DNA of 64,000 bases from Escherichia coli (lineage in GTDB: Bacteria; Pseudomonadota; Gammaproteobacteria; Enterobacterales; Enterobacteriaceae): NCBI RefSeq assembly GCF_001677475.2, contig NZ_CP015229.1, one strand, 5' to 3'. How positions within the stretch are numbered: the first letter of the stretch is position 1; every line of letters begins with the position of its first letter. A model generated the notes under the pieces. The model did no database searches, was not told the origin of the DNA, and saw only the letters and a list, made by a program, of their open reading frames with translations. Positions 19,305 through 29,119 of the stretch are shown here, piece by piece. The position numbers and the translations under genes were made by a program.

Positions 19305-19384
19305 TATAAGAGGATGGCCACAGACAGGTAAAAGACGTTTCCCAAATGTCCTATAACGATAATTTTCGCCTCACAGGAAGCATT

Positions 19385-20410
19385 ATGAAAAAGATGATGA
19401 TAGCCACACTGGCTGCCGCCAGCGTGCTGCTTGCCGTTGCAAATCAGGCGCATGCTGGTGCGACGCTTGATGCCGTTCAGAAAAAAGGTTTTGTGCAATG
19501 CGGGATCAGTGATGGATTACCTGGGTTCTCTTATGCCGATGCTGACGGTAAGTTTTCAGGTATTGATGTAGATGTTTGTCGTGGTGTTGCGGCAGCTGTA
19601 TTTGGTGACGACACGAAAGTGAAATATACCCCGCTCACTGCAAAAGAACGCTTCACGGCTTTACAGTCAGGGGAGGTGGATTTGCTCTCCCGTAATACGA
19701 CCTGGACTTCATCTCGCGATGCCGGGATGGGAATGGCATTTACCGGCGTCACTTATTACGACGGCATTGGCTTCCTGACTCACGATAAAGCGGGACTAAA
19801 AAGCGCGAAAGAACTGGATGGCGCTACCGTCTGTATTCAGGCGGGTACTGATACCGAACTCAACGTTGCCGATTACTTTAAGGCAAACAATATGAAGTAC
19901 ACACCAGTGACTTTCGATCGCTCTGACGAATCAGCGAAGGCACTGGAATCTGGTCGCTGCGATACGCTGGCCTCGGATCAATCACAACTGTATGCCCTGC
20001 GCATCAAATTAAGCAACCCGGCTGAATGGATTGTCTTACCGGAAGTTATCTCCAAAGAACCGCTTGGGCCGGTAGTTCGTCGTGGCGATGATGAATGGTT
20101 CTCGATTGTACGCTGGACGCTTTTCGCCATGCTGAATGCTGAAGAGATGGGCATCAATTCCCAGAACGTCGATGAAAAAGCGGCTAATCCAGCAACGCCT
20201 GATATGGCACATCTGCTGGGTAAAGAAGGCGATTACGGCAAGGATCTGAAGCTGGATAATAAATGGGCTTACAACATCATCAAACAGGTGGGTAACTACT
20301 CGGAAATTTTTGAGCGTAACGTAGGTTCAGAAAGCCCGCTGAAAATTAAACGTGGGCAAAATAATCTCTGGAATAACGGCGGTATTCAGTACGCGCCGCC
20401 CGTGCGTTAA
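19385..20410 (+). CDS. yhdW: Amino-acid ABC transporter periplasmic binding protein
   Basis: 341 aa from MKKMMIATLAAASVLLAVANQAHA signal peptide; intact frame. Confidence 0.85.
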   Translation: MKKMMIATLAAASVLLAVANQAHAGATLDAVQKKGFVQCGISDGLPGFSYADADGKFSGIDVDVCRGVAAAVFGDDTKVKYTPLTAKERFTALQSGEVDLLSRNTTWTSSRDAGMGMAFTGVTYYDGIGFLTHDKAGLKSAKELDGATVCIQAGTDTELNVADYFKANNMKYTPVTFDRSDESAKALESGRCDTLASDQSQLYALRIKLSNPAEWIVLPEVISKEPLGPVVRRGDDEWFSIVRWTLFAMLNAEEMGINSQNVDEKAANPATPDMAHLLGKEGDYGKDLKLDNKWAYNIIKQVGNYSEIFERNVGSESPLKIKRGQNNLWNNGGIQYAPPVR

Positions 20411-20477
20411 GTCGGTGTGAGGTAACGAGCGTCGCTACGGCGGCGCTCTCTTCAGCGTTATGCTTTCCGAGGTTTCT

Positions 20478-21659
20478 ATGTCTCATCGCCGCTCAACCGT
20501 TAAAGGCTCACTCTCCTTTGCCAACCCTACGGTTCGCGCCTGGTTATTCCAGATCCTTGCCGTTGTTGCTGTTGTCGGCATTGTTGGTTGGTTATTTCAC
20601 AACACTGTAACGAATCTCAATAATCGTGGCATTACTTCAGGTTTTGCCTTTCTGGATCGCGGCGCTGGCTTCGGTATTGTCCAGCATTTGATCGATTACC
20701 AGCAGGGCGACACCTACGGACGCGTTTTCATTGTTGGCTTACTCAATACGCTACTGGTTTCTGCATTGTGTATTGTATTCGCTTCTGTTCTGGGCTTCTT
20801 TATCGGTCTGGCGCGACTTTCGGATAACTGGCTGCTACGAAAGCTTTCCACAATTTATATTGAGATCTTCCGTAATATTCCGCCGCTGCTGCAAATCTTC
20901 TTCTGGTACTTTGCCGTGTTGCGCAATTTGCCCGGACCACGCCAGGCTGTGAGCGCGTTTGATCTGGCCTTTTTGAGCAATCGTGGGCTTTATATTCCGT
21001 CACCACAGCTGGGAGACGGATTTATTGCGTTTATCCTGGCTGTTGTTATGGCTATAGTCCTTTCTGTTGGGCTATTCCGCTTTAATAAAACATACCAGAT
21101 AAAGACCGGACAGCTGCGCCGCACCTGGCCGATCGCCGCAGTGTTGATCATTGGTTTGCCTTTACTGGCGCAATGGCTTTTTGGCGCAGCACTACACTGG
21201 GATGTCCCAGCCCTACGAGGCTTTAACTTCCGCGGCGGGATGGTTTTAATTCCTGAACTGGCAGCCTTAACGCTGGCACTTTCGGTTTATACCTCTGCAT
21301 TTATCGCCGAGATTATCCGCGCTGGGATCCAGGCAGTGCCTTATGGTCAACATGAAGCTGCTCGGTCACTGGGATTACCCAACCCGGTTACGCTACGCCA
21401 GGTCATTATTCCCCAGGCACTGCGGGTGATTATTCCACCGTTAACCAGCCAGTATCTCAACATCGTCAAAAACTCCTCTCTTGCCGCCGCTATTGGCTAT
21501 CCCGATATGGTTTCGCTGTTTGCCGGCACCGTGCTGAACCAGACGGGGCAAGCCATCGAGACGATAGCCATGACCATGTCGGTCTATCTGATTATCAGCC
21601 TGACTATCTCGCTGCTGATGAATATCTATAACCGCCGCATCGCGATCGTTGAACGCTAA
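20478..21659 (+). CDS. yhdX: Amino-acid ABC transporter permease
   Basis: 393 aa multi-TM; ORF extends upstream to 20460. Confidence 0.85.
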   Translation: MSHRRSTVKGSLSFANPTVRAWLFQILAVVAVVGIVGWLFHNTVTNLNNRGITSGFAFLDRGAGFGIVQHLIDYQQGDTYGRVFIVGLLNTLLVSALCIVFASVLGFFIGLARLSDNWLLRKLSTIYIEIFRNIPPLLQIFFWYFAVLRNLPGPRQAVSAFDLAFLSNRGLYIPSPQLGDGFIAFILAVVMAIVLSVGLFRFNKTYQIKTGQLRRTWPIAAVLIIGLPLLAQWLFGAALHWDVPALRGFNFRGGMVLIPELAALTLALSVYTSAFIAEIIRAGIQAVPYGQHEAARSLGLPNPVTLRQVIIPQALRVIIPPLTSQYLNIVKNSSLAAAIGYPDMVSLFAGTVLNQTGQAIETIAMTMSVYLIISLTISLLMNIYNRRIAIVER

Positions 21660-21668
21660 GGAGTCATG

Positions 21669-22772
21669 ATGACAAAAGTATTGCTGTCTCATCCCCCGCG
21701 CCCGGCGAGCCATAACTCAAGCCGCGCTATGGTGTGGGTGCGAAAAAATCTGTTCTCCAGCTGGAGCAATAGCCTACTGACTATTGGCTGCATATGGTTG
21801 ATGTGGGAACTGATCCCACCGTTGCTGAACTGGGCATTTTTGCAGGCTAACTGGGTTGGCTCAACGCGTGCCGACTGCACAAAAGCCGGTGCCTGTTGGG
21901 TCTTCATCCACGAACGATTTGGTCAATTTATGTATGGGCTTTACCCACACGACCAACGCTGGCGATTTAACCTCGCATTACTGATTGGGCTTGTGTCGAT
22001 CGCACCAATGTTCTGGAAAATACTCCCGTATCGCGGTCGCTATATTGCGGTATGGGCGGTGATTTACCCACTGATTGTCTGGTGGCTGATGTATGGCGGG
22101 TTTCTTGGTCTTGAGCGGGTTGAAACCCGGCAATGGGGCGGGCTGACGCTAACTTTAATTATTGCATCAGTTGGGATTGCGGGGGCGCTGCCGTGGGGGA
22201 TCTTACTGGCGTTAGGTCGCCGCTCCCATATGCCGATTGTGCGTATCTTATCGGTCATTTTTATCGAGTTCTGGCGCGGTGTACCGCTGATTACCGTTCT
22301 GTTTATGTCTTCGGTCATGCTGCCGTTGTTTATGGCAGAAGGCACCAGTATCGACAAATTGATCCGCGCGCTGGTTGGCGTGATCCTGTTTCAGTCAGCA
22401 TATGTTGCGGAAGTCGTGCGAGGCGGATTACAGGCGCTGCCTAAAGGGCAATATGAAGCGGCAGAGTCGCTGGCGTTGGGTTACTGGAAAACCCAGGGGC
22501 TGGTTATTCTGCCACAGGCGTTGAAGCTGGTGATTCCTGGGCTGGTAAATACCATCATCGCACTTTTCAAAGATACCAGCCTGGTGATCATCATCGGGTT
22601 GTTCGATCTTTTCAGTAGCGTTCAGCAGGCAACCGTTGATCCCGCCTGGTTGGGTATGTCGACAGAAGGGTATGTTTTCGCCGCACTGATCTACTGGATC
22701 TTCTGTTTCAGCATGTCACGTTATAGCCAACATCTGGAAAAACGTTTTAACACCGGGCGTACACCGCATTGA
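21669..22772 (+). CDS. yhdY: Amino-acid ABC transporter permease
   Basis: 367 aa multi-TM. Confidence 0.85.
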
Positions 22773-22779
22773 GGACACT

Positions 22780-23538
22780 ATGAGCCAAATTTTACTGCAA
22801 CCTGCTAACGCGATGATTACGCTGGAAAACGTCAATAAATGGTATGGACAATTCCATGTTTTGAAAAATATAAATTTGACCGTGCAACCGGGAGAACGGA
22901 TCGTTCTGTGTGGCCCTTCTGGTTCCGGTAAATCGACAACCATTCGTTGTATTAATCATCTGGAAGAACATCAACAGGGACGGATCGTGGTGGATGGCAT
23001 CGAACTTAATGAAGATATCCGCAATATTGAGCGCGTCAGGCAGGAAGTGGGAATGGTCTTTCAGCATTTCAATCTCTTCCCTCATCTGACCGTTCTACAG
23101 AACTGTACCCTGGCACCGATTTGGGTACGCAAGATGCCTAAAAAAGAGGCTGAAGCTCTGGCGATGCATTACCTTGAGCGGGTGAGAATTGCCGAACATG
23201 CCCAGAAGTTTCCCGGACAGATTTCGGGTGGTCAGCAGCAACGCGTTGCCATAGCACGTTCACTTTGTATGAAACCAAAGATCATGCTATTTGATGAACC
23301 TACGTCGGCGCTCGATCCGGAGATGGTGAAAGAGGTGCTGGATACGATGATTGGACTGGCGCAATCGGGTATGACAATGTTGTGTGTAACGCATGAGATG
23401 GGGTTTGCGCGAACCGTCGCTGACCGGGTGATTTTTATGGAGCGTGGGGAAATAGTGGAGCAAGCTGCACCTGATGAATTTTTTGCGCATCCTAAATCAG
23501 AGCGTACGAGGGCATTTTTATCGCAGGTAATCCATTAA
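22780..23538 (+). CDS. yhdZ: Amino-acid ABC transporter ATP-binding protein
   Basis: 252 aa; Walker [10 protein letters not shown], signature LSGGQQQR. Confidence 0.92.
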
Positions 23539-23561
23539 TTGAATGTTAGTTCGAAAAGCAA

Positions 23562-23764
23562 AAAGGCCATCCTTTCGGATGGCCTTTCGCTTGATTTGAT
23601 GTCTGGCAGTTTATGGCGGCGTCCTGCCCGCCACCCTCCGGGCCGTTGCTTCGCAACGTTCAAATCCGCTCCCGGCGGATTTGTCCTACTCGGGAGAGTG
23701 TTCACCGACAAACAGCAGATAAAACAAAAGGCCCAGTCTTCCGACTGAGCCTTTTGTTTTATTT
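23562..23764 (-). terminator. rrnD distal terminator region (T1/T2-type hairpins)
   Basis: Two hairpins (AAAAGGCCATCC..GGATGGCCTTT and AAGGCCCAGTC..GACTGAGCCTTT) matching rrn terminator sequence as recalled. Confidence 0.7.
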
Positions 23765-23765
23765 G

Positions 23766-23885
23766 ATGTCTGGCAGTTCCCTACTCTCGCATGGGGAGAC
23801 CCCACACTACCATCGGCGCTACGGCGTTTCACTTCTGAGTTCGGCATGGGGTCAGGTGGGACCACCGCGCTACTGCCGCCAGACA
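23766..23885 (-). rRNA. rrfF: 5S ribosomal RNA, distal copy
   Basis: 120 nt, reverse complement of 5S sequence; two compensatory differences from rrfD. Confidence 0.93.
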
Positions 23886-23922
23886 AATTCTTTTCTAATC
23901 TGCCGAACTTTAACCTAAAAAG

Positions 23923-23998
23923 TGGTGCTGATACCCAGAGTCGAACTGGGGACCTCACCCTTACCAAGGGTGCGCTCTACCAACTGAGCCATATCAGC
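23923..23998 (-). tRNA. thrV: tRNA-Thr
   Basis: Reverse complement GCTGATATGGCTCAGTTGGTAGAGCGCACCCTTGGTAAGGGTGAGGTCCCCAGTTCGACTCTGGGTATCAGCACCA. Confidence 0.93.
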
Positions 23999-24010
23999 AC
24001 GCTAAATTTG

Positions 24011-24130
24011 ATGCCTGGCAGTTCCCTACTCTCGCATGGGGAGACCCCACACTACCATCGGCGCTACGGCGTTTCACTTCTGAGTTCGGCATGGGGTCAG
24101 GTGGGACCACCGCGCTACGGCCGCCAGGCA
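24011..24130 (-). rRNA. rrfD: 5S ribosomal RNA
   Basis: 120 nt exact match to canonical E. coli 5S as recalled. Confidence 0.95.
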
Positions 24131-24228
24131 AATTCTGTTTTATCAACACGTCATGTTCTGACCTGTCGATTTAATCTGTATCAGGCTGAAAATCTTCTCT
24201 CTATCCGCCAAAACATCTTCGGCGTTGT

Positions 24229-27132
<2,904 letters not shown>

Positions 27133-27314
27133 CACAACCCGAAGATGTTTCTTTCGATGCATCATCGTGTTGCGAAAATTTGAGAGACTCACGAACAACT
27201 TTCGTTGTTCAGTGTTTCAATTTTCAGCTTGATCCAGATTTTTAAAGAGCAAAACTTCGCAGTGAACCTTTGCAGGTACACTCTGAAGTATTTTTTATTT
27301 AATCACTACAGAGA

Positions 27315-27390
27315 TGGTGGAGCTATGCGGGATCGAACCGCAGACCTCCTGCGTGCAAAGCAGGCGCTCTCCCAGCTGAGCTATAGCCCC
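27315..27390 (-). tRNA. alaU: tRNA-Ala (spacer)
   Basis: Reverse complement GGGGCTATAGCTCAGCTGGGAGAGCGCCTGCTTTGCACGCAGGAGGTCTGCGGTTCGATCCCGCATAGCTCCACCA. Confidence 0.93.
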
Positions 27391-27432
27391 ATAACATGTA
27401 GTTAAAACCTCTTCAAATTTGCGGTGCAAATT

Positions 27433-27509
<77 letters not shown>

Positions 27510-27577
27510 GTAGAGGTTTTACTGCTCATTTTCATCAGACAATCTGTGTGAGCACTGCAAAGCACAGTTCTTTAAGG

Positions 27578-29119
<1,542 letters not shown>

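What the first reader, a model, noticed from the sequence alone, without database searches (positions are those of the whole stretch)
23766..24130. Distal 5S gene (rrfF) differs from rrfD by compensatory helix-I changes
Both 5S copies are 120 nt. In RNA sense the operon-internal copy reads 5'-TGCCTGGCGGCCG...CCAGGCAT-3', whereas the distal copy after tRNA-Thr reads 5'-TGTCTGGCGGCAG...CCAGACAT-3'. C3 to U is matched by G118 to A, preserving a base pair in helix I, and there is one further C to A change at position 12. The matched pair indicates selection on structure, so this is a functional variant 5S rather than a decaying duplicate.
Basis: seen in the sequence. Interest (0 to 1): 0.3.

Follow-up and report, generated by a model that had tools for sequence, protein, structure and literature searches.

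The report
Known variant second 5S gene (rrfF)
This is the well-known extra 5S ribosomal RNA gene (rrfF) at the end of the rrnD operon; its matched U3–A117 base-pair change is real and identical to the E. coli K-12 reference, and it is conserved across enteric bacteria, so it is an ordinary working gene, not a new discovery.

Summary
The two 120-nt 5S genes (24011-24130 and 23766-23885, minus strand) differ at exactly three positions: 3, 12 and 117, not 118. C3:G117 in the proximal copy becomes U3:A117 in the distal one, which keeps a Watson-Crick pair in helix I.

Both copies are base-for-base identical to E. coli K-12 MG1655 rrfD (b3274) and rrfF (b3272), so the feature is already in the reference annotation. 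The position-12 "change" is the ordinary A/C polymorphism, split 4:4 among K-12's eight 5S genes.

The rrfF allele with its upstream spacer matches with at most one mismatch in 5249 of 5463 E. coli records, which rules out assembly error. In about 25 other enterobacterial genera, the 5S gene after tRNA-Thr(GGU) carries U3:A117 while the proximal copy keeps C3:G117. Often these are the only two differences, even though positions 12-13 are homogenised within each genome. In every Providencia and Xenorhabdus locus sampled, the 5S gene is U3:A117.

I conclude it is a functional, co-transcribed, dosage-adding 5S gene with an old, structurally neutral compensated pair. Novelty: already known. Interest is low. 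No reads or ribosome data were available, so expression of this allele in ribosomes was not shown directly.

The parts
23766..23885 (-). Distal 5S rRNA gene (rrfF), 120 nt. U3 is at window 23883, A12 at 23874 and A117 at 23769.
   Evidence: Rfam RF00001, 90.2 bits. Identical to K-12 rrfF b3272.
24011..24130 (-). Proximal 5S rRNA gene (rrfD), 120 nt. C3 is at window 24128, C12 at 24119 and G117 at 24014.
   Evidence: Rfam RF00001, 92.8 bits. Identical to K-12 rrfD b3274.
23923..23998 (-). tRNA-Thr(GGU) gene (thrV) between the two 5S genes.
   Evidence: ARAGORN and Rfam tRNA at 70.7 bits. Identical to K-12 thrV in alignment A2.
23886..23922 (-). thrV-rrfF spacer. It ends in AGAAUU|UG, the same 5' processing context as upstream of the proximal copy.
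   Evidence: Flank comparison. Identical to K-12.
23719..23762 (-). First intrinsic terminator (T1-type), directly after rrfF.
   Evidence: Terminator scan: 20-pair stem followed by a T-run. Homologous to the rrnB/rrnA T1 context.
23594..23718 (-). Inter-terminator 'tRNA-like repeat' / sRNA RrF segment. It ends with an 18-nt copy of the 5S 3' end (23594-23611, AACTGCCAGACATCAAAT) that also carries the A117-type base.
   Evidence: Repeat search. Identity of the segment taken from PMC8144298. Sub-threshold RtT match at 19.3 bits.
23561..23588 (-). Second intrinsic terminator (T2-type), the end of the rrnD transcription unit.
   Evidence: Terminator scan: 12-pair stem followed by a T-run.
24229..27131 (-). 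23S rRNA gene of the same operon (context).
   Evidence: Rfam RF02541, 2858.6 bits.
27578..29119 (-). 16S rRNA gene of the same operon. tRNA-Ile (27433-27509) and tRNA-Ala (27315-27390) lie in the spacer (context).
   Evidence: Rfam RF00177, 1577.6 bits. ARAGORN.
22780..23538 (+). Convergent yhdZ gene. It fixes the locus as rrnD.
   Evidence: ORF list. Annotation of homologous E. coli loci.

Best explanation
The region is the tail of the rrnD ribosomal RNA operon of an Escherichia/Shigella-type genome: 23S, 5S (rrfD), tRNA-Thr (thrV), a second 5S (rrfF), terminator T1, the RrF/TLR segment, and terminator T2. rrfF has no promoter of its own. It is read as part of the long rrnD transcript, cut out at the same conserved flanking sites as every other 5S, and gives a normal 120-nt 5S rRNA that enters the 50S subunit. 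This raises 5S gene dosage to eight genes for seven operons (these steps are inferred, not shown). Its only private feature is a C:G to U:A swap at pair 3:117 in helix I. This is an isosteric Watson-Crick replacement that costs about 2 kcal/mol and keeps the helix. The allele is old and tied to this operon position. It persists for two likely reasons: breaking the pair is selected against, and gene conversion, which homogenises the interior of 5S copies, rarely carries both end positions across at once. The C12/A12 difference is an ordinary polymorphism among 5S copies of one genome.
For: Identity to K-12 rrfD, thrV and rrfF, with yhdZ synteny. Both copies score far above the Rfam 5S threshold and no mismatch is marked at pair 3:117. 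No promoter-like site lies between 23S and rrfF, and two terminators lie downstream. The processing flanks are shared with all K-12 5S genes. The evaluated energy of the textbook fold is -41.7 kcal/mol for C:G, -39.6 for U:A, -39.0 for U.G and -38.0 for C.A. In E. coli, 5249 of 5463 records match spacer plus rrfF with at most 1 mismatch, and 49 of 60 evenly sampled rows match at 100%. In 14 E. coli rrnD tails read directly, 13 had U3:A117. Across species, 128 U3 copies gave A117 in 121, G117 in 6 and never a pyrimidine; the single 'C' is a frame shift in one 119-nt copy. The U3 copy follows tRNA-Thr(GGU) in Citrobacter, Enterobacter, Salmonella arizonae and diarizonae, Kluyvera, Leclercia, Lelliottia, Kosakonia, Silvania, Trabulsiella, Klebsiella indica, Photorhabdus, Leminorella, Limnobaculum and others. 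In 40 operon tails with both copies, 38 differ at position 3 and 38 at position 117, and in 15 tails these are the only differences. Positions 12-13 vary between genera (TG, TT, CG, AG, GA) but usually agree within a genome. Pair 3:117 is the only pair of 30 with changes on both sides: UA 34, CG 13, UG 5, other 1. Every 5S gene found in the Providencia and Xenorhabdus loci (6-7 per genome) is U3:A117, so this helix works in ribosomes. 5S gene dosage matters for fitness (Ammons et al. 1999, as cited in PMC7283268).
Against: No direct evidence here that rrfF-type RNA is present in ribosomes. The polysome RNA-seq I could read reports expression at the operon level, not for this 5S allele (PMC6312700). 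The 'edge of homology' argument holds for U3, where only about 7 nt of shared upstream flank exist. It is weaker for A117, because rrnA and rrnB share more than 200 nt of downstream homology (T1-TLR-T2) with rrnD in strains that carry it, yet A117 is retained.
Confidence: 0.85

Rival explanations
1. Specialised 5S isoform. The U3:A117 pair is kept at the distal rrnD position because it gives the RNA a distinct property, such as different processing or assembly kinetics, stability, or a condition-specific ribosome subpopulation. On this reading selection acts on the particular bases, not just on pairing.
For: The pair is conserved at this position across about 25 genera while the interior positions 12-13 are homogenised. 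A117 is retained despite long downstream homology with rrnA and rrnB. rrnD is among the operons relatively up-regulated under nutrient limitation (PMC6312700).
Against: A U:A for C:G swap near the end of helix I is structurally conservative. The U.G intermediate occurs in 6 of 128 copies, and one E. coli strain carries C.A. In the Providencia and Xenorhabdus loci U3:A117 is simply the 5S type seen at every locus, so it is not inherently special. No functional data exist for the allele.
Confidence: 0.1
2. Decaying or non-functional duplicate. The distal copy is a redundant duplicate drifting towards a pseudogene, and the matched pair is a coincidence.
For: It is the only 5S copy with private substitutions in K-12. 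It lies at the far end of the operon.
Against: It has only two private changes, both in one base pair, with chance about 0.002-0.005. There are no indels. It scores 90 bits against Rfam 5S. It is near-fixed in more than 5,000 E. coli genomes and conserved across genera with intact flanks. Deleting 5S genes is costly (cited).
Confidence: 0.03
3. Assembly or sequencing artefact from collapsed or mis-phased rRNA repeats.
For: rRNA repeats are a classic source of assembly errors.
Against: The same three differences are present in the K-12 reference, in 5249 of 5463 complete-genome records and in many other genera. The two copies lie 245 nt apart on one contiguous stretch with unique flanks.
Confidence: 0.01

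Closest known systems
E. coli K-12 MG1655 rrfF (b3272), the second 5S rRNA gene of operon rrnD
   Same: The 120-nt sequence is identical, including U3, A12 and A117. The neighbours are the same (rrfD, thrV upstream; T1, TLR, T2 and yhdZ downstream).
   Different: Nothing differs within the gene. The window has the other of the two known 23S-5S spacer types upstream of rrfD, and a C/T difference and a 1-nt deletion in the T1-T2 segment. The flanking yhdW-Z genes are only 98.8% identical to the best E. coli complete genome, so the host is a lineage not in that collection (possibly Shigella or a divergent Escherichia; not determined).
E. coli rrfB/rrfE-type 5S rRNA (the textbook 5S sequence)
   Same: All 118 other positions match, including A12. 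It is followed by the same kind of T1-TLR-T2 tail as rrnB and rrnA.
   Different: Pair 3:117 is U:A here and C:G there. The 18-nt 5S-end repeat in the TLR carries A in rrnD and G in rrnA and rrnB.
5S rRNA of Morganellaceae (Providencia, Xenorhabdus, Arsenophonus)
   Same: U3:A117 in helix I.
   Different: In the sampled loci the pair is present at every 5S gene seen (6-7 loci per genome), not only after tRNA-Thr. Positions 12-13 are AA, and there are a few further differences.
RrA/RrB/RrF sRNAs (tRNA-like repeats, TLR) between the dual terminators of rrnA, rrnB and rrnD (PMC8144298)
   Same: The 23594-23718 segment between the two terminators, with its 18-nt repeat of the 5S 3' end, matches the described rrnD element.
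   Different: It is not part of the 5S gene. It is relevant only because its repeat mirrors the A117 allele.

Membership tests
Bacterial 5S rRNA (Rfam RF00001) | Covariance-model score above the curated gathering score, over the full model length. | tested here: met
   Distal copy 90.2 bits and proximal copy 92.8 bits against a gathering score of 38, model positions 1-120.
Bacterial 5S rRNA (Rfam RF00001) | Helices I-V can form, and helix I closes the 5' and 3' ends. | tested here: met
   All 30 textbook pairs are canonical in both copies. The minimum-free-energy fold closes helix I in both. Pair 3:117 is compensated.
Bacterial 5S rRNA (Rfam RF00001) | The mature RNA is present in 50S subunits. 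| not testable with these tools
   No read or ribosome data were available. The polysome data read are at operon level only.
rrfF of operon rrnD (Escherichia) | Gene order 23S, 5S, tRNA-Thr(GGU), 5S, terminators, next to yhdZ. | tested here: met
rrfF of operon rrnD (Escherichia) | Sequence identity to the annotated reference gene. | tested here: met
   120 of 120 bases identical to b3272.
rrfF of operon rrnD (Escherichia) | Co-transcribed with the operon: no own promoter, and processed at RNase E-type flanks. | tested here: inconclusive
   No sigma-70-like site in 23500-24250. The flanks AGAAUU|UG and CAU|CAAAU are conserved. Transcription and cleavage themselves were not observed.
Decaying duplicate (pseudogene) | Uncompensated substitutions or indels, and patchy retention between lineages. 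| tested here: not met
   Only a compensated pair is private to the copy. It is near-fixed in E. coli and retained across genera.
TLR / RrF sRNA segment (PMC8144298) | Lies between the two terminators of rrnA, rrnB or rrnD and ends in an 18-19-nt copy of the 3' end of the upstream RNA gene. | tested here: met
   Terminators at 23719-23762 and 23561-23588. The 18-nt repeat at 23594-23611 is identical to the rrfF 3' end plus CAAAT. Description.

The most novel reading that the evidence does not exclude
The U3:A117 pair marks a distinct 5S isoform that selection has held at the distal rrnD position since before the enterobacterial genera diverged, against ongoing concerted evolution. On this reading the particular bases, not just the pairing, matter for something: for example, the timing of processing from the tRNA-Thr-5S-terminator tail, or a ribosome subpopulation linked to rrnD expression.
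Probability: 0.1. Interest if true: 0.45.

Novelty: already known. Interest (0 to 1): 0.1.

Why it matters
As stated, the finding re-discovers the reference sequence of a gene annotated for decades. It matters mainly as a clean positive control: the first-stage reader correctly spotted a compensated base pair by eye. One by-product of this check may be worth a line in a review of rRNA heterogeneity. The pair is specific to this operon position and conserved across many enterobacterial genera, while neighbouring variable positions (12-13) are homogenised within genomes. This is a tidy natural example of selection for pairing combined with limits on gene conversion. It changes no current view of 5S function.

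Tried and rejected
(1) Literature. I could not retrieve the original rrnD distal-end sequence paper (Duester & Holmes 1980, Nucleic Acids Res 8:3793, recalled from memory) or Ammons et al. 1999 by DOI or PMC id. Searches for rrfF returned no paper that discusses the allele. The statement that the compensated pair was noted historically therefore rests on my memory only. What is verified is identity to the annotated reference gene, and the count of 4 variable 5S positions in K-12 in PMC6312700, which matches positions 3, 12, 92 and 117 found.

(2) The first population query, 186 nt including T1, gave only 65% of records at 99% identity or better. This looked like allele loss. It turned out to be absence of the T1-TLR segment, with rrfF unchanged. 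I repeated the search with a 158-nt query.

(3) Plain minimum-free-energy folds do not reproduce the textbook 5S fold inside the molecule. In the proximal copy they pair C12 artificially, so I used energy evaluation on the textbook helices instead.

(4) Mapping the Rfam consensus structure onto E. coli numbering produced six non-canonical pairs around helices III-V, because of model gaps. I replaced it with the textbook helices for the pair counts.

(5) Templated (quasi-palindrome) mutation could create both changes at once. I considered it but could not test it. It is unnecessary given the age of the allele.

(6) The 101-aa ORF at 23613-23918 on the plus strand is antisense to rrfF and the TLR, and I dismissed it as spurious.

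Full report
What is there. The minus strand of window 23561-29119 carries a complete ribosomal RNA operon:
- 16S (27578-29119)
- tRNA-Ile and tRNA-Ala
- 23S (24229-27131)
- a 5S gene (24011-24130)
- tRNA-Thr(GGU) (23923-23998)
- a second 5S gene (23766-23885)
- two intrinsic terminators (23719-23762 and 23561-23588)

The convergent gene downstream is yhdZ, which fixes the locus as rrnD. The finding's coordinates (23766-24130) span both 5S genes and the tRNA.

Checking the observation. The two 120-nt copies align without gaps and differ at exactly three positions: 3 (C in the proximal copy, T in the distal), 12 (C, A) and 117 (G, A). In the Rfam 5S model the first pair is C3:G117, and the distal copy shows it as a compensated U:A with no mismatch flag. 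All 30 textbook pairs are canonical in both copies. A double change that hits both sides of one pair and stays canonical is expected by chance with probability about 0.002 (two substitutions) to 0.005 (three).

It is the reference gene. I aligned the whole 700-nt tail with E. coli K-12 MG1655. The proximal copy is identical to rrfD (b3274), the tRNA to thrV, and the distal copy to rrfF (b3272). Extracting all eight K-12 5S genes gave:
- A12 in rrfA, rrfB, rrfE and rrfF
- C12 in rrfC, rrfD, rrfG and rrfH
- C92U in rrfA only
- U3:A117 in rrfF only

So rrfF is the rrfB type plus the swapped pair, and the "further C to A change" is an ordinary 4:4 polymorphism within one genome. These four variable positions match the count given for K-12 5S rRNA in PMC6312700.

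Not an artefact, and near-fixed. A 158-nt query (33 nt of thrV-rrfF spacer, rrfF, and CAAAT) matches with at most one mismatch in 5249 of 5463 E. coli records. It matches at 100% in 49 of 60 rows sampled evenly down the ranking. An earlier 186-nt query that included T1 suggested only 65% conservation. The shortfall came from strains that lack the T1-TLR segment, in which rrfF itself is unchanged. I read 14 E. coli rrnD tails directly, and 13 had U3:A117. The variants seen were:
- U87A (O157:H7)
- C35U (O145)
- A12C with U3:A117 kept (strain LR-06)
- one strain (5444) with C3 and C12 but A117, that is, a C.A mismatch that looks like a partial conversion

Other species. I scanned species-representative genomes for the U3 5' end (TGTCTGGCGGCNNTAGCGCGGTGG). 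Together with the E. coli loci fetched later, these hold 128 full-length U3 copies. Position 117 is A in 121 and G (a U.G wobble) in 6. The single 'C' is a frame shift in one 119-nt Kluyvera copy, whose true base there is A.

In the following genera, the U3 copy lies directly after a tRNA-Thr(GGU): Citrobacter, Enterobacter, Salmonella enterica subsp. arizonae and diarizonae, Kluyvera, Leclercia, Lelliottia, Kosakonia, Silvania, Trabulsiella, Klebsiella indica, Pluralibacter, Superficieibacter, Pseudocitrobacter, Pseudenterobacter, Intestinirhabdus, Escherichia whittamii, Photorhabdus, Leminorella and Limnobaculum. Wherever the upstream copy is readable it is C3:G117, with one exception that has U3.G117.

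I compared 40 operon tails that have both copies. The two copies differ at position 3 in 38 tails and at position 117 in 38. In 15 tails these are the only differences. Positions 12-13 vary between genera (TG, TT, CG, AG, GA) but usually agree between the two copies of one genome. That is the signature of concerted evolution acting on the interior. On 53 distinct sequences, 3:117 is the only one of 30 pairs with changes on both sides: UA 34, CG 13, UG 5, unpaired 1. In Providencia, Xenorhabdus and Arsenophonus the U3:A117 form is found at every sampled locus (6-7 loci per genome) and is not tied to tRNA-Thr. I infer that this helix is fully competent in ribosomes.

How it most likely works. 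The steps shown here are gene identity, structure preservation, conservation, absence of a promoter-like site between 23S and rrfF, presence of two downstream terminators, and conservation of the flanks AGAAUU|UG and CAU|CAAAU shared by all K-12 5S genes. The inferred steps are as follows. rrfF is transcribed as the tail of the rrnD precursor. It is released by the usual RNase E-type cuts and end trimming (established knowledge of 9S/5S processing). It then assembles into 50S subunits. This gives eight 5S genes for seven operons, and 5S gene deletions are reported to be unusually costly (Ammons et al. 1999, cited in PMC7283268).

The U:A swap costs about 2 kcal/mol on the textbook fold: -39.6 against -41.7, with U.G at -39.0 and C.A at -38.0. 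The allele is old. I attribute its persistence to selection against unpaired intermediates, plus the difficulty of converting both gene ends at once. U3 has only about 7 nt of shared upstream flank. This argument is weaker for A117, because rrnA and rrnB share the whole T1-TLR-T2 tail with rrnD. That leaves some room for selection on the specific pair, which I rate at about 0.1.

Comparison with what is known. The closest known entity is rrfF itself, and membership is met on sequence identity, synteny and Rfam score. The only defining feature I could not test is physical presence in ribosomes. The segment between the terminators is the RrF/TLR element described in PMC8144298. Its 18-nt copy of the 5S 3' end carries A in rrnD and G in rrnA and rrnB, so it mirrors the upstream 5S allele.

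Verdict. The feature is already known, and interest is low (0.1). The cross-genus, position-specific conservation set against homogenised interior positions is a neat detail. It does not change what is known about 5S function.

Noticed in passing
window 23594-23611 (- strand), within the T1-T2 segment 23594-23718: The 18-nt copy of the 5S 3' end that closes the RrF/TLR element reads AACTGCCAGACATCAAAT, so it carries the rrfF-type A. In K-12 rrnA and rrnB the same repeat has G, matching their 5S genes. Isolate SC418 has a further C>T in it. The repeat therefore tracks the allele of the 5S gene just upstream.
   Followed up: partly
E. coli loci L130, L131, L132, L134, L135, L137, L138 compared with window 23594-23765: In roughly a third of complete E. 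coli genomes, rrfF is followed directly by the T2-type terminator, and yhdZ starts about 62 nt after the 5S gene. T1 plus the RrF/TLR segment is missing, with the breakpoint exactly at the two 18-nt direct repeats. This looks like deletion (or gain) by recombination between the repeats. The window and K-12 carry the long form.
   Followed up: partly
L138 (E. coli strain 5444, NZ_CP103515.1), distal 5S: This strain's rrfF has C3 and C12 but keeps A117, giving a C.A mismatch in helix I. The spacer also has one changed base. It looks like a partial, patchy conversion of the 5' end.
   Followed up: no
window 24131-24228 (23S-5S spacer, - strand): The spacer upstream of rrfD (…GACAGGTCAGAACATGACGTGTTG…) is of a different type from that of K-12 rrnD (…AGAACGCAGAAGCGGTCTG…). 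It matches isolates SC418 and GN05652. Two spacer types that interconvert between operons are described in bioRxiv 10.1101/2020.08.03.235192.
   Followed up: partly
window 19346-23538: The yhdW-yhdZ genes are at most 98.8% identical to any of 5,425 complete E. coli genomes, all of which fall in the 95-99% band. The host is therefore an Escherichia/Shigella lineage not represented in that collection. Its identity was not determined.
   Followed up: no
window ~23620 (- strand), inside the RrF/TLR segment: The window has a 1-nt deletion (GGACG-CCGCC) and, at ~23724, a C for T (ATCTGCTG vs ATCTGTTG) relative to K-12 and SC418.
   Followed up: no
window 27139-27247 (- strand) and 42795-42906 (- strand): There is a full-length Rfam match to StyR-44 (123.8 bits) just upstream of the 23S gene, and one to the alpha-operon ribosome-binding-site element (102.7 bits) further along the window. 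Both are expected features of enterobacterial genomes.
   Followed up: no
PMC4696680 text compared with window 27315-27509: That paper lists rrnD among the operons with a tRNA-Glu spacer. The rrnD-type operon here has tRNA-Ile and tRNA-Ala in the 16S-23S spacer. This is probably a slip in the paper.
   Followed up: no
window 23613-23918 (+ strand): A 101-aa ORF runs antisense across the TLR, T1 and rrfF. It is almost certainly spurious.
   Followed up: no
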